From Octopus vulgaris (Eukaryota), in contig OX597817.1 of NCBI GenBank assembly GCA_951406725.2, forward strand, positions 145,824,001 through 145,888,000: a stretch of 64,000 nucleotides of DNA, written 5' to 3'. The position numbers were made by a program, and so were the translations under genes. Positions within the stretch are counted from its first letter, which is position 1, and every line of letters begins with the position of its first letter. Under the pieces are notes generated by a model. That model searched no databases and was not told the origin of the DNA. It saw only the letters and a program-made list of their open reading frames with translations. Below are positions 7,850 through 62,816 of this stretch, piece by piece.

Positions 7850-8880
7850 TACTGTCACCGGGTGGTCTTCATCCCCTATTAAAGCATGGAAGTCTCTCAA
7901 ATAAACATTTGACATGAGCTGTTGTTCAGCACGATGACAGTGGCCAGGAAAACCTAACCTGCACTGTGGAACAAAAGTAGAGATGGACAGACTGTGTCTA
8001 CAAATATCCTCTTTGATCTTGTGCTCACTGTATGAGATGTTTTGAGCCCTCATGAGAAGCCTGTTTAACATTCCTTGAGATACTAGCCATCATGGGTACC
8101 TTGAATCTCCTTCTTCATAGTTCAGCATTTGGCCCCCCAGACAGAAGAGTACCCTCTATGCATGTCCTAAAGAAAGACAACCTAGTTGACACTGAAATAC
8201 TTGATAGTCAAATCTTCTGAATTTGTTTCAGGCATTCCAGTCATGTAAGGAAGTCTTTGTTACTGTCAACAACATAGGAACCAAGATACTTGAAGTGACT
8301 GACCTCTTTGGGTTTAGTGCCATCATTCAAAAAAATTAGCAGATGGCTTTCATCCTTGTTGATGCTCATGTATTTAGTGTTCCCTCTTTTTTCATTGATA
8401 AACAGACCAACTTTGGCTGCAGTAAACTCAAGGAATATTGGTTTCAAATTTTGGTACAAGGCCAGCAATTTGGGGGATGGGGGTAAGCCAGTTACATTGA
8501 CCTCAGTACTTAACTGGTACTTATTTTACTGACCCTGAAAGGATCAAAGGCAAAGTCAACCTTGGTGGTGTTTGAACTCAGAACACAAAGATGGACGAAA
8601 TGCCATTAAGCATTTTGCCTGGCACAGTAATGATTCTGTCAACTTGCAGCCCCATACTCAAGGAATATTAACAAGTCATCTATATTGCACAGTTGATGAA
8701 ATGTAAGGGGAAGATATCAACATAATCAAGTTTCAGAGAGATACACTATGCTGATATGTTGATTGTATAGATGGATAGGTTGTGGAGCCATCTAATGTAA
8801 CTCTATTCAGAAGGCTGTAATATCATTTGAAAGGAACATGGTATAAAGAAATACATGGAACAAGGTGGTAACTTTAAATA
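7850..8880 (-). mobile_element. Old RTE-like LINE reverse transcriptase fragment, interrupted by a SINE
   Basis: Frames give AAKVGLFINEK..TKYM, EVSHFKYLGSYV and RLLMRAQNISY..H...CRLGFPGHCHR, typical of RTE RT domains 6-7 and the C-terminus. Contains stops and frameshifts. Confidence 0.7.
8440..8655 (-). mobile_element. SINE family B with 14-bp TSD
   Basis: ACTCAAGGAATATT at 8426-8439 and 8656-8669 flanks the SINE body. Confidence 0.85.
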
Positions 8881-24387: not shown

Positions 24388-26083
24388 TAGTAGATAACAG
24401 CTAACCGTTGGCCGATATTTGGACCCCGTTGGGTCCACTACTCTGATTGGTTAGTATTGGCGCAAGTTGTCTCTTACTTTCTCGCGCCAATATGCAGCAT
24501 AACCAATCGAAGTCCCTAAATAAGATCACGTGAGACAGCCTGTTCACAATCCAATTCGAACCTACTGTTACTCATAAAAACTCAACTACTCCTCGTCTCG
24601 AAGTCTTTGGTTTCAGAGCTTCTAAGGTCTAGCCACGGACCACTATCTATAAACTCTCCACAACAACATTCACCAGGAATACAAATATCTTAACACCCTA
24701 CTTTAATGCTGCCGTTATTTGTAGTTCATTGCCACTTAGTAAATTACCAACGTTAGCAATCACAGTAAAATGTTGACCTACACAGCCGAATGTTTGTCTC
24801 TGTGCCACAAATTTACGGGCTAGAATCCATTGATCGTAATTCGTCAAATTTAGATCTTTTCAAAGCAACATCCTATTCTCGTTATCTTATTTGAGAGAAC
24901 AAATCTGAACTAAAATTTGTCCACCATCTCATTGAAGGAATTAGAATTCCTGTTAGTGCGGATGGGGATGCAGTCCACCCGATGAAAATAAGCTTGGGAT
25001 TGCACAGAAACAAAGCAACGAAAAGCAGAAAATCAAGTCACTATTACGCAATAGCAAAGACGTTTGTGCCCAGACAAGGTCATTTGATAAATCATTATAT
25101 ATCATATAAATCATTATATATAAAACATTATATATTATCTCTGTTGCTGTATAAGCAGTTTAAAGATCAATAAATTGAAAAGTAAAACTGCTCAGAAAAG
25201 ATAAATCGATTTTGGCATCAACAAACAATTCTAAAGAAAGAAAAAGGTTTGATGCAGATGTATTAAAAAGAAGATTACGCAAATTTTATGCCTTTATCGA
25301 AATAGTCGTTGAAATCCATGTGTTTAATTTGTTCACTGAACACCACTGCGAATTTCCCCTTGTTTTTGTTTTTTTAAATACCCCCAAATCACAAAATAGG
25401 AGGGGATGTGCCCTATTTTTCAAATCTTGGCAGCAACACTGAAGCTAGAAGCAGGATAATAATCTAACTCTATACGTTTTTAAGTACAACACACGCGGAG
25501 TAAAAAAAAAAACACTACCTATCACCCGGCATTGTCGTTCACGCAGTGCTTTCTCTCCCTAGTGTGAAGCTTCCTATCTCGGATATGTGAGCAAACACCG
25601 CGTCGCTGGAACTGTGAAGTGCACAATTCTATACAAGGATTTTTGTATTTTTTTCATAAACTAGGGGATGGCTACTGACATTAAGCTTAAGGATTATATA
25701 ATGTACAGGTATAAAGAAAAATTAAAGAAAAAAGGACTCATTATATTGGATGTTATCGATAGTATCGAGTAGAAATAGGGGGTACTGCAGTTCCGCAATT
25801 CCTATACATAAGCCGCCACTTGTAGTCTAAGGCGGTCAGGACACCGCTACAGAATTGTCTGGAAGAAGAAATTGCCCCTTTTATATTAATTAAAGAGAAG
25901 GGAGAAGGTTGACGACAAGGAAAATATAGCTATTCCAAATTTGTTGGTGCATGAGGAAGCTTCAGCTGTTAACCTGGGGGAAACTTGGCGTTTGGGTGAC
26001 AAACAGAAGCAGCTGAGCTTAATAATCGCGCTGCACCTTATAGGTTCAATTGTATAGTTTACAGCCTTGTAAACTATTGTATA

Positions 26084-26316
26084 TATTTCTTTACTACCCC
26101 ACAAGGGGCTAAACACAGAGGGGACAAACAAGGACAGACAAATGGATTAAGTCGATTACATCGACCCCAGTACGTAACTGGTACTTAATTAATCGACCCC
26201 GAAAGGATGAAAGGCGAAGTCGACCTCGGCGGAATTTGAACCCAGATCGTAACGGCAGACGAAATACGGCTACGCATTTCGCCCGGCGTGCTAACGTTTC
26301 TGCCAGCTCGCCGCCT
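26084..26316 (-). mobile_element. SINE family B, full length, ~20-bp TSD
   Basis: AGCCTTGTAAA(C/T)TATTGTATA on both flanks. Confidence 0.92.
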
Positions 26317-40463: not shown

Positions 40464-41516
40464 CAGTCGGTTAGATGAAACGACATACAACACTTAGAAT
40501 ATCTTTGTATTCTAACAGAGAGAAGAAGAAAAAAACAAAGAAAACGAAAAACACCCTTTTTACCCCTAAAAGTTTCAGCTTTTGTTGTTAGAAGCTCCGA
40601 GGAGAATGAAATGGATCTATTTATCAAAAATGTTAACTCAAAAAATCTGAAGACATTATTTTCGGTGATGTGATAATGCTATTAATAATAATAGTTTCTA
40701 ATTTTGGCTAAAAACCAGCAATTTAAAGAGGGAATGGCCAAGTTGATTACATCCACCTCACTCACTCCTCAACCGATACTTATTTTATCGACCTCGAAAA
40801 GATGAAAGACAAAGCCGACTTCGACAGAATTTGAACTCAGGACGTAAAGCCGGAAGAATTTCTGCTAAAAATTTTGCCCAGCCTACTAACGATTCTGCCA
40901 GATCACCGCCTTATAATTCTTTTTTTAGCACGAGGCCAGAGATTTTAGGAGGAGTGGAGGGGTCTGATGCTATTAATAATAATGGTTTCTGGGCACAAGA
41001 ACAGCAATTTTAAGGAAGGGATGTTGATGCCTTTGACCTCTAGTACAAGACTAGTACTTTATTTTACCGACCTCGGAGGAATGAAAGGTTAAATTAAAAT
41101 CGGTGGGATTTGAAATCAGAATGTAAAGAAACAATAACTACCGCAAAGCATATTGTTCGACGGTTTGACAGTTCTGCAATTTTGTTAAATTTCTTCCAAC
41201 CATTTTCAAAAAATGCAATTTTGCATGCTGAAATTAATAATAAAGTTACATTAGTATAGAAAATTAGGGGAAAAAAATTGGTGAAAATTTAAAATACTTC
41301 AAATGGTTGGAAGGAATTTCACAAGATCTTCTTGCATTTCCATAATAATCGCTTCAAATGTTGATACAAGGCCAGCAATTTTAGCGGAGGAGGTTATTCG
41401 ATTACATCAACCCAGTACTTAACTGATGCTTTATTTTTATCAATCCCATAAGGATGAATTACAAAGTTGACCACGGCAAAATTTGAACTCAAAACGTAAT
41501 AAGTCGGAAGAAATAC

Positions 41517-41737
41517 CTATTTCTTTACTACCCACAAGGGGCTAAACACAGAGCGGACAAACAAGGACAGACAAACGGGTTAAGTCGATTATATCGACCC
41601 CAGTGCGTAACTGGTACTTAATTTATCGACCCCGAAAGGATGAAAGGCAAAGTCGACCTCGGCGGAATTTGAACTCAGAACGTAACGGCAGACGAAATAC
41701 CGCTAAGCATTTCGCCCGGCGTGCTAACGTTTCTACC
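41517..41737 (-). mobile_element. Young SINE family B nested in an older related SINE (~41353-41770)
   Basis: Near-consensus body flanked by degenerate halves of a related element. Confidence 0.85.
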
Positions 41738-41911
41738 ACTAGGCATTTTGTCTGACACTCGGCGGAATTAAGAATGCCATATAACCCCTCATAACTTCTT
41801 AGTTTTTGGAATTTTTCAGTAAACTTTTGCGAATTTGTGTTCTACACTCAGGAATTCATACGACTATGCAACCTAACCCCACCAAAAACATTTGTGTGTG
41901 ATTTAAGGGGT

Positions 41912-45790: not shown

Positions 45791-46019
45791 ACTCTGCAAA
45801 CTGAGGCACCAGCAACTAATGTTAAAACAATCGCAAATCCATGTTGTATGATCTGTATTACTTGAAATAGAATCACATCTTGAGCTGATTCGCTCCACAA
45901 GTGTGTGTGTGTACATGTGTGTGCATGCACATGCGTGTGTGTGTGGGAGAGAGAGAGGGTGAAAGAGAGAAGGTGAGAGAGAGGGGGCCCGATAATTGTA
46001 TGTGTGTGTGTCAGGGACA

Positions 46020-46452
46020 GGCCAGCTGTTGATTGGGTGTGTATAATTGAAGGTCACCTGTTGACTGTGTTTGCATGTGTGTGTGTGTGTGAGAGAGAGA
46101 GAGAGGGGGAGGTCACTTCTTGACTGTGTGTGTGAGAGAGAGAGAGAGGTCAGCTGTTGATTGTGTGGGTATAAATGAAGGTCACCTGTTGACTGTGTTT
46201 GCATGTGTGTGTGTGTGAGAGAGAGAGGGGGGAGGTCACTTCTTGACTGTGTGTGTGAGAGAGAGAGAGAGAGAGGTCAGCTGTTGATTGTGTGTGTGTG
46301 TGTGAGAGAGAGGGAGAGAGAGGTCACCTGTTGACTGTGTGTATGTGTGTGAGAGAGAGAGAGAGGTCACCTGTTGATTGTGTGTGTGTGTGTCAGTGAT
46401 AGGCTCACTGGTTCTATGTGTGCATGTAAATGACAGGCCAGCTGTTGATTTA
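46020..46452 (+). repeat. Minisatellite: GGTCA(C/G)CTGTTGA(C/T)TG core separated by (GT)n(GA)n
   Basis: About 9-10 cores visible. Confidence 0.9.
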
Positions 46453-47470
46453 TATGTGTCATTGACTGCCAGATGAAGATTGTGAGTGTGTCGGTGACAG
46501 GCTGTCTGTTGATTAATGCATACTGTGGAATTTTGTTGGAGAGTCTGTTCCTATTCATGAGTGGAACACTTAATCTGTTTAACACCACCAAATGATGCAT
46601 TGGTGCTTTTGGAGGGCTTTGGACTGTTACAAGCATTCCCGCCGGGTCTCTGATCTGAGGATAACTTCTAACCTTTTTCTAATCCCAGAAGCCCTTAAAG
46701 GTCTCTATCAATAAAGATTAATTTTTGTAACGGTTAAAGTTTATTGTATAACAGTTGAGTCACCAATTTGTAATGGTAGAAGTTTATGAATTTGTATGGT
46801 TGAAATTAACTTGTAAACAATAATATGGGATGTTGGAGTCGTAACCAGTTTGTAGGGATTGATTCTTTGTTGATTACCATAATGTAAAGATGAAAAAAAA
46901 GTGATTGAAGTTGTGAAGAAAATATTTATTTTACTGTTACATTATACAATACCTTGCCTTGATGGGCAGGTGATGAAATCATAAAGCATGCAAAGTAAAG
47001 ATAGCTGTAGATTTTGCTTGTATATATTTGTGTACATGTTCTCTTAGTAGTAATCCACAGAAAGAGATAACGTGATGTTGTAAGAGGAAATCAAGTGAGC
47101 TAGTGAGAGGGTGTGGAAAGTTGTTTCATAGTTGCTGATTGTAAACTTCATTTCTCCCTCCGACCATTTATCTTTAGTAGCTGCCTGCTTGTGACCTGAC
47201 TCGAGTTGTCACTCACTGACTAACTGAGTTGTCACCAAGTGACTAACTGATTTTTGCTTGGGGGTTCTTGTTTTTATAACTATCCAGTAGGATAGACATA
47301 TCATTGAGAACAATAAATTTAGTTGGTGGTCTGTGATATCTTAATTCTAGCTTTTGGTGAAGTAGAAGAGGTTAGAAAGGTCAAGTGGTGAAGACATTAT
47401 TTTGCTTAGTATCTGGAAAATGTAAAGTGCTGTCAAAGAAAAACTATTGTTTTACTGTGAGAAAAATTCT

Positions 47471-48398
47471 GTTGAAGTGTTAATTTAAACTTGACTATCT
47501 AGGATCGAATCTACTTCATGCCTGCAAGATTCAGTCTGAGGATAACTTCTAACCTTTTTCTAATCCCAGAAGCCCTTAAAGGTCCATGGGTGTTGCCTTC
47601 CTTTGTTGACAAAGTCATAAAAAATGGGAAACAAAATGTTTCCTTTGTATCTTTAACCCTCTAGTATTTAAACTGGCCATATCCTACCCAATCATTCAAC
47701 CTATTTCATGTTCAAACTAAGCCAGATCTGGCTTCTCACACGGACCCTACAATGTCATTTTTGTGGTTGATGAAAGGAGCACAACGGAAACAAGGAAATA
47801 GGAAACAGAGGTGCAATAAGGTCTTACCTGACGGGGGATGAAGTCGGATGGCCTTCAGCCAACTTGCTCGCGTGTTGTCGTCTCGGTGCCTTGCTGGGGT
47901 CTGTCGTAGCCGGTCGATGCCGCACGTGCGTTGAGTTGAAGTGTTAATTTAAACTTGACTATCTAGGATCGAATCTACTTCATGCCTGCAAGATTCAGTC
48001 TGAGGATAACTTCTAACCTTTTTCTAATCCCAGAAGCCCTTAAAGGTCCATGGGTGTTGCCTTCCTTTGTTGACAAAGTCATAAAAAATGGGAAACAAAA
48101 TGTTTCCTTTGTATCTTTAACCCTCTAGTATTTAAACTGGCCATATCCTACCCAATCATTCAACCTATTTCATGTTCAAACTAAGCCAGATCTGGCTTCT
48201 CACACGGACCCTACAATGTCATTTTTGTGGTTGATGAAAGGAGCACAACGGAAACAAGGAAATAGGAAACAGAGGTGCAATAAGGTCTTACCTGACGGGG
48301 GATGAAGTCGGATGGCCTTCAGCCAACTTGCTCGCGTGTTGTCGTCTCGGTGCCTTGCTGGGGTCTGTCGTAGCCGGTCGATGCCGCACGTGCGTTGA
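47471..48398 (+). repeat. 464-bp tandem duplication spanning the flank and part of the 3' LTR
   Basis: 47471-47934 repeats at 47935-48398; the first unit contains a partial LTR at 47762-47936. Confidence 0.95.
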
Positions 48399-48536
48399 GT
48401 CTCTCACTTCCGCTTCCGCCGGCGCATGCGCCCTGCAAGACCTGTAAGCATCACTTCCGCTCCCGCCCGTCCCGTCACACTCCTTCATCACCACACCACA
48501 CGCCCCCCTGATCTATAAATCACTGAACCAGCTTCC

Positions 48537-50588
48537 TCACTCGCTCCCGCACCCGAAACTGGTTTCATAATCAGCCAGCCAGGGAGGAGGGTGCCGGTCC
48601 CTCTGTGGTCGCAGCGCGACCCTAGGACTTGTTTCTGGTGTGTTGCTGTCGACCTCGTCATCCTGTCGGTTGTTTTCGTCCTGCCCACTGTTGCTTGTCC
48701 CATCCTCTGGGGCATGGACAATCCTCCGTATGTCCAAAACGTGGCGTGGCATACCATCGATGAAGATGTTATTTTTCGAACTTACGGAGGTTATTGTCCC
48801 CTTTCCCCATTGCGATGTACACCGTGCGTTTGGGGGTTTTACCCAGACTTCCTCCCCGACCCGCACGAAGGCGTGCTCTTCCTCTGCCCCGGGTTGCATT
48901 GATTTAGTACACGGATGCCTCCACTCGTACCTAAATATTGCTCTGTGTGGCACCGATTCCTCAGCCTGTCCGGATCGGGGAGACAAGTTGTACCAAAAAA
49001 CTGCTTCAAGCGGCGAAATGTGCCCCCTTTCCGCTATGGCCTTGACTGTCCGATGGTGCCTCTCCACGATCCCGTTACCGCCCGGCCTATACGCTGCTCT
49101 GAACAAGCGTCGCACGTTCCACCGATCAAGCATAACCCTCAATGCTTCCGAACGAAATGCCGCCCCGTTGTCCATCAGTAGTTCTTCCACGGGACCTCTC
49201 TCTAAAAATATCCCGTTCAGGATCTGCACGATCTCGTCAGCAATGCCCGATCTCAACTCCCTCCAAATGGCCAGCCGGCCCGGCCCACAGTCGACCATGG
49301 AGAGGTACGTTCGCTGACGGTAGTGTGTCACATCCACAGCTAGCCTTTTCCAGTTCTGCTCCACGGAAAGGCTTCCCTGTTCATGCCCACACGGAGCAGG
49401 GTCGATGGACTGACACCTGTCCTCCACCGCAGTGCCTTCGATTGCCAACACCACCCCTATCGCTATACTGCTAGCGTCACACCAGACAGTCCCGCATTTC
49501 GTCCTGGGCACGTACCAGTTCCCCCTGACCGGGTCTTCCGCTCTTGTCCTCTCTAGGATCTCCTGCATCATCGCCACCGTCCCTTCTCCCACCTTGTCGC
49601 CCCACCTCTCTCCTTCTGCTCGTCTCTTGGTGTAACTACACGCCGTGCGCAGCCATCCAGCGATCGGGTAGTGACCGACCAACTTCCCACACACCGAGAA
49701 CAGCTCTCTCCTGCTGACGCTGGAACTCAGCTCTGGGATTTCATTTCCTCTCCGGAACACCAATTCGCCTGATCTATCTCTTCGCAGCTTCAGCCCCAGT
49801 GCGGCTCCCCCTTCAATCGACTCCGGCGGCTTAGCAATCAGTCCGAACTTCTCCAGATGTCTCACTACCTCGTCGGCTGCCACTACAGTTTCGTCCACCA
49901 AAATGTCGTCAATGTAGGAGCTGGTGGCCTTTCTAATCTTGCCGTCTTTCCCCAGGACGGACCTAAGCACTGCCGACATGATCTTCGGAGCAGAATTCAG
50001 CCCGAAACCCAGCCTGGTTAGACAGTACGTCCGGCCCTTGTACCGCACCAGCTGATATCGCCATAGTTTGTCGCTCACATGGAGCTGCAAGTATGCCGAT
50101 CTCAAGTCGACAATCGTCGCTGCCTCAGTCGACTGTCTCCACTTGCGCAATGCCTCACCACAAACGTCTGTCGCCTCACCTCCCGTGTGACACGATATGT
50201 GCTGGTTTAACTCCCTGAAGTCCAGCACCGGTCTAACTTTTCCCTTCGTAGGCTGCACCACCGCCATCAGGGGTAGCACTCCGCCCGCTACCTCCTCCTT
50301 CCAAGGGACAAGGATCCCTTCCTCGATCCACCTCTCCACCTCGTCTTCAAACTCAACCCTGGCGTGGCCTTTCAGAGTATGCTGGTAACAGCTCACCCTG
50401 TTCTCCAGTGTCGGGGGCTCGTCCTTCCATTTCCACTCTATCGTCCACCGCCTGAAAGTCCTTGTCCTCGATGGTGTAAGCAGCGCCGTCCCTCGCGGGG
50501 CTCTGCTCCCTCTGGTGATCCTGACTCGCAGCGCACGACGCCCCCACGCTTCCGAACGTGACCTTATTTCCCACAACGCTGACGCCAC
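48537..50588 (-). CDS. Gypsy pol remnant: RT, truncated RNase H, integrase core
   Basis: KVRPVLDFRELN, DLRSAYLQ, RLGFGLNSAP, SYIDDILV; CDASS; AVDVTH, DNGAAF, GNGIVER. In-frame deletion joins VED to RCQSIDP. The N-terminal ~45 aa are out-of-frame read-through. Confidence 0.93.
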   Translation of the reverse strand: MASALWEIRSRSEAWGRRALRVRITRGSRAPRGTALLTPSRTRTFRRWTIEWKWKDEPPTLENRVSCYQHTLKGHARVEFEDEVERWIEEGILVPWKEEVAGGVLPLMAVVQPTKGKVRPVLDFRELNQHISCHTGGEATDVCGEALRKWRQSTEAATIVDLRSAYLQLHVSDKLWRYQLVRYKGRTYCLTRLGFGLNSAPKIMSAVLRSVLGKDGKIRKATSSYIDDILVDETVVAADEVVRHLEKFGLIAKPPESIEGGAALGLKLRRDRSGELVFRRGNEIPELSSSVSRRELFSVCGKLVGHYPIAGWLRTACSYTKRRAEGERWGDKVGEGTVAMMQEILERTRAEDPVRGNWYVPRTKCGTVWCDASSIAIGVVLAIEGTAVEDRCQSIDPAPCGHEQGSLSVEQNWKRLAVDVTHYRQRTYLSMVDCGPGRLAIWRELRSGIADEIVQILNGIFLERGPVEELLMDNGAAFRSEALRVMLDRWNVRRLFRAAYRPGGNGIVERHHRTVKAIAERGHISPLEAVFWYNLSPRSGQAEESVPHRAIFRYEWRHPCTKSMQPGAEEEHAFVRVGEEVWVKPPNARCTSQWGKGTITSVSSKNNIFIDGMPRHVLDIRRIVHAPEDGTSNSGQDENNRQDDEVDSNTPETSPRVALRPQRDRHPPPWLADYETSFGCGSE

Positions 50589-50865
50589 CGAGGCAGTTGA
50601 TGGCGTCCATCCCCATCACCACATCAACTCCATTTATCACGCGTTCGGCCACAATTGCCTGTAGCCTTAGCGTCGCGCACCACTATCTCTACCGCGCTGC
50701 TGCCTCTGCAACGGATTTCGCTGCCGTCGACCGCCCGGACACTACACACCCCGTTCCATTCCTTCGTCACCCTCGAAGTCACCAGGGTGGTCGTACAGCC
50801 CGTATCCACAAGGGCCTTGAACGTCTCCCCCTTGGCCTCCACGTCAATCACTGGCAGTGTCTCCA
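50480..50865 (-). pseudogene. Retroviral-type aspartic protease, frameshifted
   Basis: [26 protein letters not shown], continuing in another frame as VINGVDVVMGMDAINCLGG. Confidence 0.9.
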
Positions 50866-50900
50866 GTCAGGTAAGACCTTATTGCACCTCTGTTTCCTAT

Positions 50901-51252
50901 TTCCTTGATTGGTGTACCAATGTCCCAACAGTGAGCCTGATAAAGGTCCACATAATTGGTCTGCAGACACTCAAGACTCTTCTCCAAGCCAGCCACAATG
51001 TGTTTACGACTGAGCCCAACAGCATTGACGTCGGTCGGGTCGTTGGGGTTGGTGTTGACCCGGACCTTAGTGGCGATAACATACCTGCTCCTTTCTTTAC
51101 TGCTGAGCCAGTTACCGACAATTGTCTCCGACTGACGGTCAGTGTAGACATCTGCTGTGTCAATGAAGTTGCCACCACATTCGGCAAAACGGTCAAGGAG
51201 TTGATATGAACCTGTGGGGTCCAACTGACCTGGGCGATGATTTTTTTTCATC
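50901..51252 (-). pseudogene. Captured intronless aldo-keto reductase fragment (YajO/Tas/Kv-beta-like AKR), N-terminal half of the barrel
   Basis: [11 protein letters not shown]...SETIVGNWL...YVIATK...[32 protein letters not shown]. Catalytic D, Y, K and H are present; no stops. Confidence 0.93.
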
Positions 51253-51937
51253 CTGACGGGGGATGAAGTCGGATGGCCTTCAGCCAACTTGCTCGCGTGT
51301 TGTCGTCTCGGTGCCTTGCTGGGGTCTGTCGTAGCCGGTCGATGCCGCACGTGCGTTGAGTCTCTCACTTCCGCTTCCGCCGGCGCATGCGCCCTGCAAG
51401 ACCTGTAAGCATCACTTCCGCTCCCGCCCGTCCCGTCACACTCCTTCATCACCACACCACAATTTTAAAAATAAACAATCACATCATCAAAATCTCAAAG
51501 CTAAAATATAATACATGATTAATAAAGAGTAGAAATTAATATTATTAAATAATATCAATTTCCACCAGTGGTCGTCAGCATGCTTAAAAAACGTCTGAAG
51601 ACTGTGAATTCTTTTTAAATATAAACAATATGAGAGATCCCTATGTAGATCCCTTGTATGCTAAAAATAGATGTCAAACCGTCTTGAACAATTGAAAAGA
51701 AAAAGAAAGAAATATAGCACTATGTTTATTTTTTTTATTCATTTGTCTAGCTCGTAAACATCTAGTGTCTTGCTAATTTGAGAACACAGATTTTGTGGCA
51801 AGACAGTTTGCCATCTATTTTTAGCATACAAGGGATCCACTTAGTGAACTCTCATATTGCTTATATTTAAGTAAGACAATGTTAACAAATAAGCTTTACA
51901 TTTGACAGAATAAACTGAATGGTAAACGGTTAATACT

Positions 51938-52165
51938 TATTTCTTTATTGCACAAAAAGCTAAACATAGAGGGGACAAACAAGGACAGACAAAGGGATTA
52001 AGTCAATTAGATCGACCCCAGTACACAACTGGTAATTAATTTATTGACCCAGAAAGGATGAAAGGCAAAGTCAACCTCGGCGGAATTTGAACTCAGTACG
52101 TAACGGCAGACAAAATACCGTTAAGCATTTCGCCCGGCGTGCTAACGATTTTGCCAGCTCGCCGC
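51938..52165 (-). mobile_element. SINE family B with ~15-bp TSD, at the end of a probable TTAA/CCC piggyBac-like MITE (48121..51929) that hosts the Gypsy insertion
   Basis: TAAA(C/G)GGTTAATACT on both sides; TTAACCCT at 48117. Confidence 0.8.
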
Positions 52166-60529: not shown

Positions 60530-60706
60530 TTCACATAGTTCTCAAGGAGATTCAGTGTGACACAGAATGTGACAAGGCTGGCCCTTTGAAATACAGGTAC
60601 AACTCGTTCTTGCTAGCTGAGCAGACTGGAGCAATGTGAAATAAAGTGTCCTGCTCAAGGTCACAACATTCCTTGAGGAATCAACTTCACAACCTTAAGC
60701 CAAATA

Positions 60707-60939
60707 CCTATTTCTTTACTACCCACAAGGGGCTAAACACAAAGAGGACAAACAAGGACAGACAAACAGATTGAGTCGATTATATTGACCCCAGTGCATA
60801 ACTGGTACTTAATTTATCGACCCCAAAAGGATGAAAGGCAAAGACGACCTCGGCGGAATTTGAACTCAGAACATAACGGCAGACGAAATACTGATAAGCA
60901 TTTCACCCGGCATGCTAACGTTTCTGCCAGTTCGCCGCC
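60707..60939 (-). mobile_element. SINE family B with ~15-17-bp TSD
   Basis: CCTTAAGCCAAATACCT on both flanks. Confidence 0.92.
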
Positions 60940-61074: not shown

Positions 61075-62816
61075 CTGAAGCTGGCAAAATTTGTTAGCAT
61101 GTCAGATGAAATGCCTTGCAGTATTTAGTTCTGGCTCTATGTTCTGAGTTAAAATCCCACCAAGGTGATTTTGCCTTTCATCCTTTCAGTGTCATCATCA
61201 TCATCATCATCGTTAACGTCCGCTGTCCATGTTAGCATGGGTTGGACGATTTTGACTGAGGGCTGGTGAACCAGATGGCTGCACCAGGCTTCAACCTTGA
61301 TCTGGCAGAGTTTCTACAGCTGGATGCCCTTCCTAATGCCAACCACTCCGAGAGTGTAGTGGGTGCTGTAATAAAATCAAATAGCTTTTGACCATTGGGA
61401 CCAATGAAATTGATTAACTCTCTCCACCAAAGACAGCTGACCTCATATCAAAATTTAAAGCCAATTATCTTAGGAAATGGAAGGTGATGAGCTGGTAGAA
61501 TTGTTAGCATGTTGGACAAAGTGCTAAGCTGCATTTCTTCAGGATCATTATGTTTTGAATTCAAAGACGGCAAGCTGGCATAATTGTTAGCAGGCTGGAC
61601 AAAATGCAGAGTGGTATTTCGCCAGTTGCTACATTCTGAGTTCAAATTCCGCTGAGTTCAACTTTACCTTTCATCCTTTCGGGGTCAATAAATTAAGTAC
61701 CAGTTGAGTACTGGGGTTGATGTAATTGACTATCCCTGCTCACCCAAATTTCAGGCCTTGTGCTTACAGTAAAAAGGATTATGTTCTGAGTTCAAATCTC
61801 ACCAAGGTCAACTTCACCTTTCATAATTTCAGGGTCAATGCTTTCCCTCAAAATTCCTGGCCTTGACCCTGAATTAGAAGCTACTATTGAACATACATCG
61901 TCATCATCATTACCATTGTCATCATTTAACATCTGCTTTCCATGCTAGCACAGGTTGAGTGGTTTGATGGAAGCTGGTGAGCTAGAGGGTTGCACTAAAC
62001 CCTGTTGTCTGTTCTGGCATGGTTTCTTATTTCTTTATTGCCCACAAGGGGATAAACATAGAGGGGACAAACAAGGACAGATGAAGGGATTAAGTCGATT
62101 ACATTGGCCCCAGTGTGTAACTGGTACTTATTTAATCGACCCTGAAAGGATGAAAGGCTAAGTCGACCTAGGCAGAATTTGAACTCAGAACATACCGCTA
62201 AGCATTTCGCCCGGTGTGCTAACGTTTCTGCCAGCTCACTGCTTGGTTTCTATAGTTTCTGGCTTGGTTTCTATGGCTAGATGCCCTTCCTAATGCCAAT
62301 CACTTTACAGAATGTACAGGGTGCTTTTTATGTGACACCAACACACTCGTTTCAGTCATTGCACTGTGGCCATACTGGGGTACCACTTTGAATGGTTTAG
62401 TCAAAGGCATTGACCCCAGAACTTATTTTTTAAGGTTGGTACTTATTCTGCCAATCTCTTTTACTGAAACATTAAGGGGTCATAAAGAAACTTACACCAA
62501 TTGTCCAGTGGTGTGGGGACGAACACAGACAGGCACACATGCATACGTATGCACACACACACACACATATACAATCCTTTCTACTATAGGCACAAGGCCT
62601 GAAAGTGGAAGAGCGGGATAGTTGATTACATCGACCCCAGTACTCAACTGGTACTTTTTCCATCGACCCCGAAAGGATGAAGGGTAAAGTTGACCTCAGC
62701 AGAATTTGAACTCAGAATGGAGCAAACGATTCTGCCAGCTCACCACCTTGCACATGCACACACACACGCACACGCACACACACACACGCATGCACACATA
62801 CACACACATGTACACA

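What the first reader, a model, noticed from the sequence alone, without database searches (positions are those of the whole stretch)
50866..50907. 42-bp antisense LTR patch bridging AKR and protease: footprint of a double template switch
Seen: GTCAGGTAAGACC...ATTTCCTTG (50866-50907) is the exact reverse complement of LTR positions 48255-48296, mostly the segment missing from the 5' LTR. At the AKR end, CAAGGAA continues the AKR frame (P-I-K-E), which suggests microhomology. Inference: first-strand cDNA, after copying INT-RT-PR, jumped onto strong-stop DNA for 42 nt and then onto the LTR-AKR mRNA. Second-strand transfer then used R homology instead of a PBS. This would explain a complete 3' LTR together with a U5/PBS-less 5' LTR.
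Basis: partly seen in the sequence, partly recalled or inferred. Interest (0 to 1): 0.75.

Follow-up and report, generated by a model that had tools for sequence, protein, structure and literature searches.

The report
Patched retrotransposon-gene chimera in octopus
A dead octopus retrotransposon copy picked up a spliced piece of a host enzyme gene and joined it to its own protease gene with a short backwards snippet of its own terminal repeat, a neat fossil of copying errors already known from retroviruses rather than a new functional element.

Summary
The patch is real: 50866-50907 is an exact, non-extendable 42-nt reverse complement of LTR 48255-48296. It lies in a young, defective Gypsy-like LTR-retrotransposon copy in which a spliced octopus aldo-keto reductase (AKR) fragment replaces U5, the PBS and gag. 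At the AKR end, 8 nt of the patch fit the parent's I-K-E-T codons (null about 0.001). At the protease end microhomology could not be measured, because no intact DNA was obtainable; relatives carry an open pol leader there, not the patch. Best model: 'patch repair' during reverse transcription, with strong-stop DNA as a third template, perhaps tethered to the LTR-AKR mRNA at the splice fork. Rivals are a plus-strand switch and post-insertion DNA repair. Each step has a retroviral precedent; the combination is unusual. It is one dead copy, with no sign of function.

The parts
51462..51465 (-). Candidate 4-nt target-site duplication, 5' side (matches the 3' side at 3 of 4 positions)
   Evidence: no exact longer TSD next to the element within 2 kb
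51360..51461 (-). 5' LTR, putative U3 (LTR 1-102): starts TG, GC 63%, three CGGAAG and one GCGCATGCGC motif (ETS- and NRF1-like by recall), no TATAA
   Evidence: the U3/R boundary is inferred
51253..51359 (-). 5' LTR remainder (LTR 103-209), putative first exon, ending at the splice donor; the rest of the LTR and the PBS are absent
   Evidence: 210/210 identity to 48291-48500; donor score
50908..51252 (-). Partial spliced aldo-keto reductase (PF00248) retrocopy, about residues 31-145 of the Octopus YajO-like AKR; an extra base in an A-run shifts the frame at its start
   Evidence: 97% identity to the O. sinensis protein P0001
50900..50907 (-). 8-nt overlap readable both as AKR codons (I/K/E/T) and as antisense LTR
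50866..50907 (+). 42-nt LTR patch (LTR 205-246) inverted relative to the element; contains the donor itself; three stop codons in the protease frame
48540..50865 (-). Defective pol (PR-RT-partial RNase H-INT), no gag. Frameshift in PR near 50672, short frameshifting deletion near 50453, in-frame loss of about 168 codons (most of RNase H and the integrase zinc finger) near 49420
48501..48509 (-). Polypurine tract plus 2 nt, abutting the 3' LTR
48399..48500 (-). 3' LTR putative U3
48286..48294 (-). Splice-donor consensus in the LTR (LTR 207-215); GC falls from 63% to 39% downstream
47935..48398 (-). Putative R-U5, copy 1 (LTR 103-566); holds the patch source 48255-48296
47470..47934 (-). Putative R-U5, copy 2 (exact tandem duplicate, 2-nt junction overlap), ending at the LTR terminus CA
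47466..47469 (-). Candidate 4-nt target-site duplication, 3' side
46654..46703 (-). Second, 50-nt exact LTR piece (LTR 453-502) in the flank, same orientation as the LTR, between two copies of a 7-nt target word, with 4-nt and 3-nt junction overlaps; relation to the main event unknown

Best explanation
The patch is a third-template insertion ('patch repair') made by reverse transcriptase inside a retrotransposon particle. The particle held element RNA and a spliced LTR-to-AKR mRNA. Minus-strand DNA ran from the LTR through INT and RT to the start of PR, jumped with little or no homology onto antisense LTR DNA (strong-stop DNA, free or the strand's own 5' end), and copied LTR 205-246. It then crossed on 8 nt of microhomology to the AKR mRNA and finished at that mRNA's 5' end in R. 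With no PBS on that end, second-strand transfer used the shared R sequence (about 107 nt), giving a 5' LTR without U5 or PBS. Added refinement (inferred): strong-stop DNA base-pairs with the mRNA's LTR exon up to the splice point. That makes a fork at position 209/210 whose free DNA arm begins where the patch begins and whose other arm is the AKR RNA, which would explain why the patch starts at the donor. The tandem R-U5 copy would be a finished strong-stop DNA that re-primed at the U5 end. Shown: the sequence anatomy, AKR-end compatibility, the spliced state at one junction. Inferred: TSS, co-packaging, strand, order of events, tethering.
For: Exact inverted identity and 100% identity among all LTR copies. 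Both element ends are precise LTR termini with a PPT in place. AKR overlap of 8 nt, null 0.00104. The 5' LTR ends at the best donor of 32 GT sites. The AKR piece crosses LYQ/AHC, where the O. vulgaris model departs. The patch start lies within 6 nt of the donor: about 13 of 423 possible starts (3%; the 423 is, the window was chosen after the fact). One end of the 464-nt duplication is 1 nt from the LTR terminus and the other is just past the promoter-like motifs, which is the expected span of strong-stop DNA. Precedents read as passages: patch repair by third templates (PMC4997597); LTR-mediated retrocopies with median 6-bp microsimilarity (PMC5131818); premature second-strand transfer and homology-free jumps of finished strong-stop DNA in HIV-1 (PMC12657518; PMC10986323).
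Against: Protease-end homology is unproven: 5 of the last 7 nt match if the first patch base is counted (4 of 452 sites as good), but 4 of 7 if it is not (31 of 452), and the test was post hoc. The target-site duplication is only 3 of 4 although the LTR copies have no differences. A second LTR piece in the flank looks like DNA repair, so LTR-templated insertion can occur here without particle-stage switching. No intron position, TSS or poly(A) site could be verified, and the LTR has no AATAAA or ATTAAA. The model needs several rare events in one round.
Confidence: 0.55

Rival explanations
1. Same particle, other strand: plus-strand DNA running LTR-AKR jumped at the 8-nt overlap onto a sense LTR template (an RNase H fragment of R-U5 RNA, or plus strong-stop DNA), ran off its end at position 205 and landed on PR without homology.
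For: It fits the asymmetry, with strong homology at the AKR end and weak at the PR end. Plus-strand transfer errors are documented in HIV-1 (PMC12657518 passages).
Against: It does not explain why the patch ends within 6 nt of the donor, and it needs a separately primed cDNA of the AKR mRNA.
Confidence: 0.15
2. DNA-level templated insertion after or during integration (polymerase-theta-type end joining, or capture of LTR cDNA at a break) that replaced an older AKR-pol junction.
For: A second exact 50-nt LTR piece sits 767 nt outside the element between duplicated 7-nt words with 3-4-nt overlaps. LTR cDNA is a hotspot donor of break insertions in yeast (PMC10802722 passages). Short inverted templated insertions at breaks are described (PMC11724301 abstract). 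The TSD is imperfect.
Against: It still needs a prior template switch to make the AKR-pol chimera. The donor lies 2.6 kb or more away, whereas the cited foldback inversions use sequence next to the break. It leaves the position at the donor unexplained.
Confidence: 0.15
3. Later inversion: the copy first read LTR 1-246, antisense AKR, PR, and the block between the two copies of LTR 205-210 then flipped, leaving a 6-nt inverted duplication.
For: The patch begins exactly where the 5' LTR ends, with a 6-nt inverted overlap; undoing the flip makes LTR 1-246 contiguous.
Against: The breakpoint would fall by chance on the best donor in the LTR, and it needs antisense capture of a spliced mRNA.
Confidence: 0.07
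4. The inverted patch is a normal feature of this particular family, or came with the donor element.
For: No member above about 71% RT identity was found, so the family itself was not tested.
Against: The patch has three stops in the PR frame. 40 relatives with 14 or more upstream residues have open frames there, 26 of the 40 with a Cys-small-small motif, and the best match to either open patch frame is 4 of 14. The patch also overlaps the AKR by 8 nt.
Confidence: 0.04
5. Assembly or chimeric-read artefact.
For: All four local repeats (466, 210, 50, 42 nt) are 100% identical with abrupt ends, and the TSD is imperfect.
Against: A DNA artefact cannot make a spliced AKR joined at a donor site, and the ends are precise LTR termini. 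The tandem duplication is the part most open to this doubt.
Confidence: 0.04

Closest known systems
LTR-mediated retrocopies (Tan et al. 2016, PMC5131818; passages, section 5 and a term search of 9 of 10 supplements seen)
   Same: A partial spliced mRNA replaces part of an LTR element; no poly(A); short microsimilarity at a junction; more than two switches; short extra sequence at some junctions (3 of 29).
   Different: There the mRNA replaces part of the internal ORFs. Here the 5' junction is inside the LTR at a splice donor, U5 and PBS are lost, and the extra sequence is a traceable antisense LTR piece. The terms invert, inversion and trans-splic had no hits in the searched supplements (file 1 was not searched).
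Retroviral patch repair / tertiary-template insertions (as reviewed in PMC4997597, passages seen; the primary paper PMC2168973 was not held)
   Same: A short third template bridges two non-homologous templates using fortuitous microhomology.
   Different: The review describes host sequences as patches. Here the patch is the element's own LTR in antisense, so its template must be DNA or antisense RNA.
Retroviral oncogene transduction (readthrough route stated in PMC4997597 passage; spliced route recalled)
   Same: An LTR-driven host chimeric RNA is co-packaged and then recombined onto the element's 3' end.
   Different: Classical transductants keep U5, PBS and the packaging signal and can spread (recalled). 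This one splices out of the LTR itself and is a dead end.
Aberrant strand transfers in HIV-1 / MLV (PMC12657518 abstract, passages, section 7; PMC9278108 and PMC10986323 passages; Mikkelsen 1998 title only, in a reference list)
   Same: [quoted passage not shown]
   Different: Those are somatic proviruses without host-gene capture; no tandem R-U5 or antisense LTR patch appeared in the passages I saw.
Capture of Ty1 LTR cDNA at double-strand breaks (PMC10802722 passages)
   Same: Short LTR-derived pieces inserted at junctions, sometimes several joined together.
   Different: There the pieces go into chromosomal breaks. This fits the 50-nt flank piece better than the 42-nt patch.

Membership tests
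Ty3/Gypsy-like LTR retrotransposon | pol order PR-RT-RNase H-INT | tested here: met
   Pfam protease and rve hits below their curated cut-offs; RT similarity to MLV RT, E 5e-6; intact relatives carry RT, RNase H and rve domains and align colinearly
Ty3/Gypsy-like LTR retrotransposon | Direct LTRs ending TG...CA with a PPT before the 3' LTR | tested here: met
Ty3/Gypsy-like LTR retrotransposon | Perfect 4-6-bp target-site duplication | tested here: inconclusive
   3 of 4, 3 of 5 and 3 of 6 matches
Ty3/Gypsy-like LTR retrotransposon | PBS and gag (autonomous element) | tested here: not met
   AKR follows LTR position 209/210 directly and there is no gag; a defective copy
Ty3/Gypsy-like LTR retrotransposon | RT phylogeny placing it in Gypsy rather than BEL/Pao | not tested
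   No tree was built; 'Gypsy-like' rests on domain order and recall
LTR-mediated retrocopy | Intronless partial mRNA between LTR-element sequences, no poly(A) | tested here: met
   Crosses the LYQ/AHC point where gene model P0002 departs; the intron there is inferred from the gene model, not from DNA
LTR-mediated retrocopy | Microsimilarity at switch points | tested here: inconclusive
   AKR/patch: 8 nt compatible, null 0.001, but 3 wobble positions unverified. Patch/PR: weak. LTR/AKR: 1 nt, looks like a splice
LTR-mediated retrocopy | Parent gene elsewhere in the genome | tested here: inconclusive
Tertiary-template patch repair | Insert traceable to a third template, between two non-homologous templates | tested here: met
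Tertiary-template patch repair | Made by reverse transcriptase in one replication round | not testable with these tools
   Cannot be told from DNA repair with one genomic copy

The most novel reading that the evidence does not exclude
Strong-stop DNA acts as a splint. It base-pairs with the LTR-derived first exon of any host mRNA spliced from an LTR donor, holds that mRNA next to the growing cDNA, and is itself copied from the splice fork. This would be a PBS-independent route by which LTR elements capture genes they drive, recognisable by an antisense LTR patch that begins at the donor and by duplicated R-U5.
Probability: 0.25. Interest if true: 0.6.

Novelty: new variant of a known kind. Interest (0 to 1): 0.38.

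Why it matters
If the best model holds, one germline insertion records the element's own strong-stop DNA serving as a bridging template during host-gene capture, and second-strand transfer without a PBS. Such steps are described mainly from retroviral experiments and HIV proviruses. It gives a searchable signature (an antisense LTR patch starting at the LTR splice donor) for other genomes, and implies that an LTR of this family drives or splices into an octopus AKR transcript. The product is one frameshifted, gag-less, PBS-less copy with no sign of function, so the importance is mechanistic and modest.

Tried and rejected
No intact-element DNA was obtained: a genome-contig scan with the RT segment gave 103 pattern matches and 0 confirmed, and an exact LTR 21-mer gave 0. 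A protein search with the 64-aa PR piece gave 0 of 32 candidates. The cluster look-up for the AKR proteins could not be made, so other Octopus orthologues were not seen. Folding the putative R-U5 RNA showed no unusual stability (z +1.93, 99 of 100 shuffles fold as well), so a hairpin pause site is not supported. No tRNA gene lies in the window. No poly(A) hexamer was found in the LTR except TTTAAA, so the R/U5 boundary is undefined. A longer, displaced TSD, as a LINE insertion would give, was not found. The idea that the window is the AKR parent locus was rejected. The idea that 46000-47469 is a diverged LTR was rejected: only the 50-nt piece matches. Microhomology at the 168-codon pol deletion is only suggestive: the shared Asp is present in 14 of 62 relatives with both motifs, out of 120 examined. 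In one search the pile-up of alignments at 50866 (20 of 38 that reach the area, of 120) is partly forced by the adjacent stop codon, so it is not independent evidence. Ten literature searches showed no listing that describes an antisense LTR patch in a retrocopy; the older virology papers most likely to hold one are not in the library, so absence from print is not claimed.

Full report
Observation. The 42 nt at 50866-50907 are the exact reverse complement of 48255-48296 and the match cannot be extended; the chance expectation is about 1e-17. The same 42-mer also matches 47791-47832, because the LTR region is tandemly duplicated. Apart from the two LTRs, this patch and one 50-nt piece at 46654-46703 are the only exact LTR matches of 16 nt or more in the window.

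Anatomy (element on the minus strand). The order is: 5' LTR positions 1-209 (51461-51253), AKR (51252-50908), the inverted patch (LTR 205-246), a pol remnant (50865-48540), a PPT, and a 3' LTR from 48500 to 47470. The 3' LTR is positions 1-102 followed by two exact copies of positions 103-566, joined with a 2-nt overlap and ending in CA. The 5' and 3' LTRs are identical over 210 nt, so the insertion is young. The flanking 4-mers match at 3 of 4 positions, and no displaced longer duplication was found. Pol has protease and integrase hits below Pfam's cut-offs, weak similarity to MLV RT, and 910 relatives at E<=1e-30 among 7,999 candidates scored, the best about 70% identical over RT. It is broken near 50672, 50453 and 49420 and there is no gag. 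The host is an octopus: the AKR piece is 97% identical to O. sinensis and O. vulgaris proteins.

The 5' junction. The 5' LTR stops at the best splice-donor match among 32 GT sites in the LTR (8/9), where GC drops from 63% to 39%. The AKR starts at the Asp of the parent's A-T-D-E-K; LTR and AKR visibly share only 1 nt there. The fragment runs through LYQ into AHC without a break, exactly where the O. vulgaris gene model leaves the alignment, so it came from spliced RNA (inference from a gene model). A spliced LTR-AKR transcript is therefore likely. Whether it arose in cis from an LTR inside the gene or by trans-splicing is open, and the intron at this junction is unverified. Tan et al. noted one Gypsy family whose switch site always lay near exon-exon junctions (PMC5131818 section 5).

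The AKR/patch junction. The parent continues T-P-I-K-E-T-L-L. The first 8 patch bases are compatible with those codons; 5 are fixed by the amino acids and 3 are wobble positions I could not check. Among 115,830 random AKR by antisense-R-U5 junction pairs scored the same way, 0.104% reach 8.

The patch/PR junction. No intact DNA could be fetched. Of 269 relatives, 123 had a PR hit, 68 had an ungapped alignment with upstream residues, and 40 had 14 or more. Those 40 have open frames, 26 with a Cys-small-small motif, and none exceeds 4 of 14 identity to an open frame of the patch; the patch has three stops in the PR frame. So the patch is not a feature of the wider group, though the family itself is untested. 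Similarity between the PR edge and LTR 199-205 is 5 of 7 (4 of 452 sites as good) or 4 of 7 (31 of 452), depending on whether the first patch base is counted: weak and post hoc.

Mechanism. For minus-strand DNA to gain sense LTR sequence, its template must be antisense LTR. If the 5' junction is a splice, the TSS lies upstream of position 209, so positions 205-246 are inside R-U5 and so inside strong-stop DNA wherever the poly(A) site is (inference). Two further features point the same way. First, the duplicated unit runs from just after the promoter-like motifs to 1 nt short of the LTR end, the expected span of strong-stop DNA; finished strong-stop DNA is known to jump without homology (PMC10986323 and PMC12657518 passages). 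Second, the patch starts 5 nt before the donor, within a zone holding about 13 of 423 possible starts (for the 423; my post hoc count). Strong-stop DNA annealed to the mRNA's LTR exon would fork exactly there, offering the free DNA arm as template and tethering the AKR arm. That model accounts for both the donor junction and the patch start, but every step of it is inferred. The U5/PBS-less 5' LTR then follows from second-strand transfer through R. Premature second-strand transfer is reported in HIV-1 (20 of 23 large deletions started upstream of the PBS, PMC12657518 passage), and an R-U5-mediated route appears as a title in a reference list.

Against. The 50-nt LTR piece in the flank lies between two copies of a 7-nt word with 4-nt and 3-nt overlaps and a 5-nt stutter, which looks like repair synthesis (pattern recalled for polymerase-theta joining). 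LTR cDNA is a favoured donor at yeast breaks (PMC10802722 passages). With the imperfect TSD, this keeps a DNA-level origin at about 15%. A plus-strand version of the switch (15%) fits the lopsided homology equally well. A later inversion (7%) explains the 6-nt inverted overlap but not the donor. A family feature or an assembly artefact is unlikely (4% each), the duplication being the part most in need of read support. RNA folding gave no support for a structural pause.

Comparison and verdict. It works like retroviral patch repair (PMC4997597 passage) inside an LTR-mediated retrocopy (PMC5131818), with an asymmetric-LTR outcome like those in HIV-1 (PMC9278108 passages). It differs in that the patch is the element's own LTR in antisense and starts at the splice donor. 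Ten searches and a term search of 9 of 10 supplements of PMC5131818 showed no such case. PMC2168973 was not held and older virology papers are outside the library, so novelty in print is not established. Other papers seen without bearing on the verdict: PMC3187697, PMC7197481 and PMC5651808 (passages) and PMC11724301 (abstract). Verdict: observation confirmed, interpretation partly supported, a new variant of a known kind in a single dead copy; interest 0.38.

Noticed in passing
window 47470-48398: Exact 464-nt tandem duplication covering the LTR from position 103 to 1 nt short of its end, the expected span of strong-stop DNA; needs read support.
   Followed up: partly
window 46654-46703: Second exact LTR piece (50 nt, LTR 453-502) in the flank, between duplicated 7-nt words with a 5-nt stutter; looks like a repair-templated insertion.
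   Followed up: partly
window 47466-47469 and 51462-51465: Target-site duplication matches at only 3 of 4 positions although the LTR copies are identical; GC skew also changes sign across the element (+0.27 left, about -0.2 right), so the flanks may not have been contiguous.
   Followed up: partly
window 50908-51252: The AKR piece differs from the O. sinensis protein by three substitutions and a 1-nt frameshift while the LTR copies have none: a different Octopus species, a paralogue, or copying errors.
   Followed up: no
window 48286-48500 (minus strand): The LTR looks like a TATA-less GC-rich promoter with a strong splice donor inside it, so solo LTRs of this family could supply first exons to host genes.
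   Followed up: partly
window 48540-50865: The pol belongs to a large, mostly unnamed group with DUF7047; named hits include Argonauta, Oratosquilla, Petrolisthes and Aplysia. Most pol ORFs begin just upstream of protease with a conserved Cys-rich leader.
   Followed up: partly
window 8414-8641, 26078-26305, 41511-41738, 51929-52156, 60702-60929, 62021-62248: Dispersed SINE-like repeat family of about 228 nt, plus several other dispersed repeats and long microsatellite tracts.
   Followed up: no
window 45950-46410: Degenerate tandem array of roughly 40-nt units built from GT and GA microsatellites, just left of the second LTR piece.
   Followed up: no
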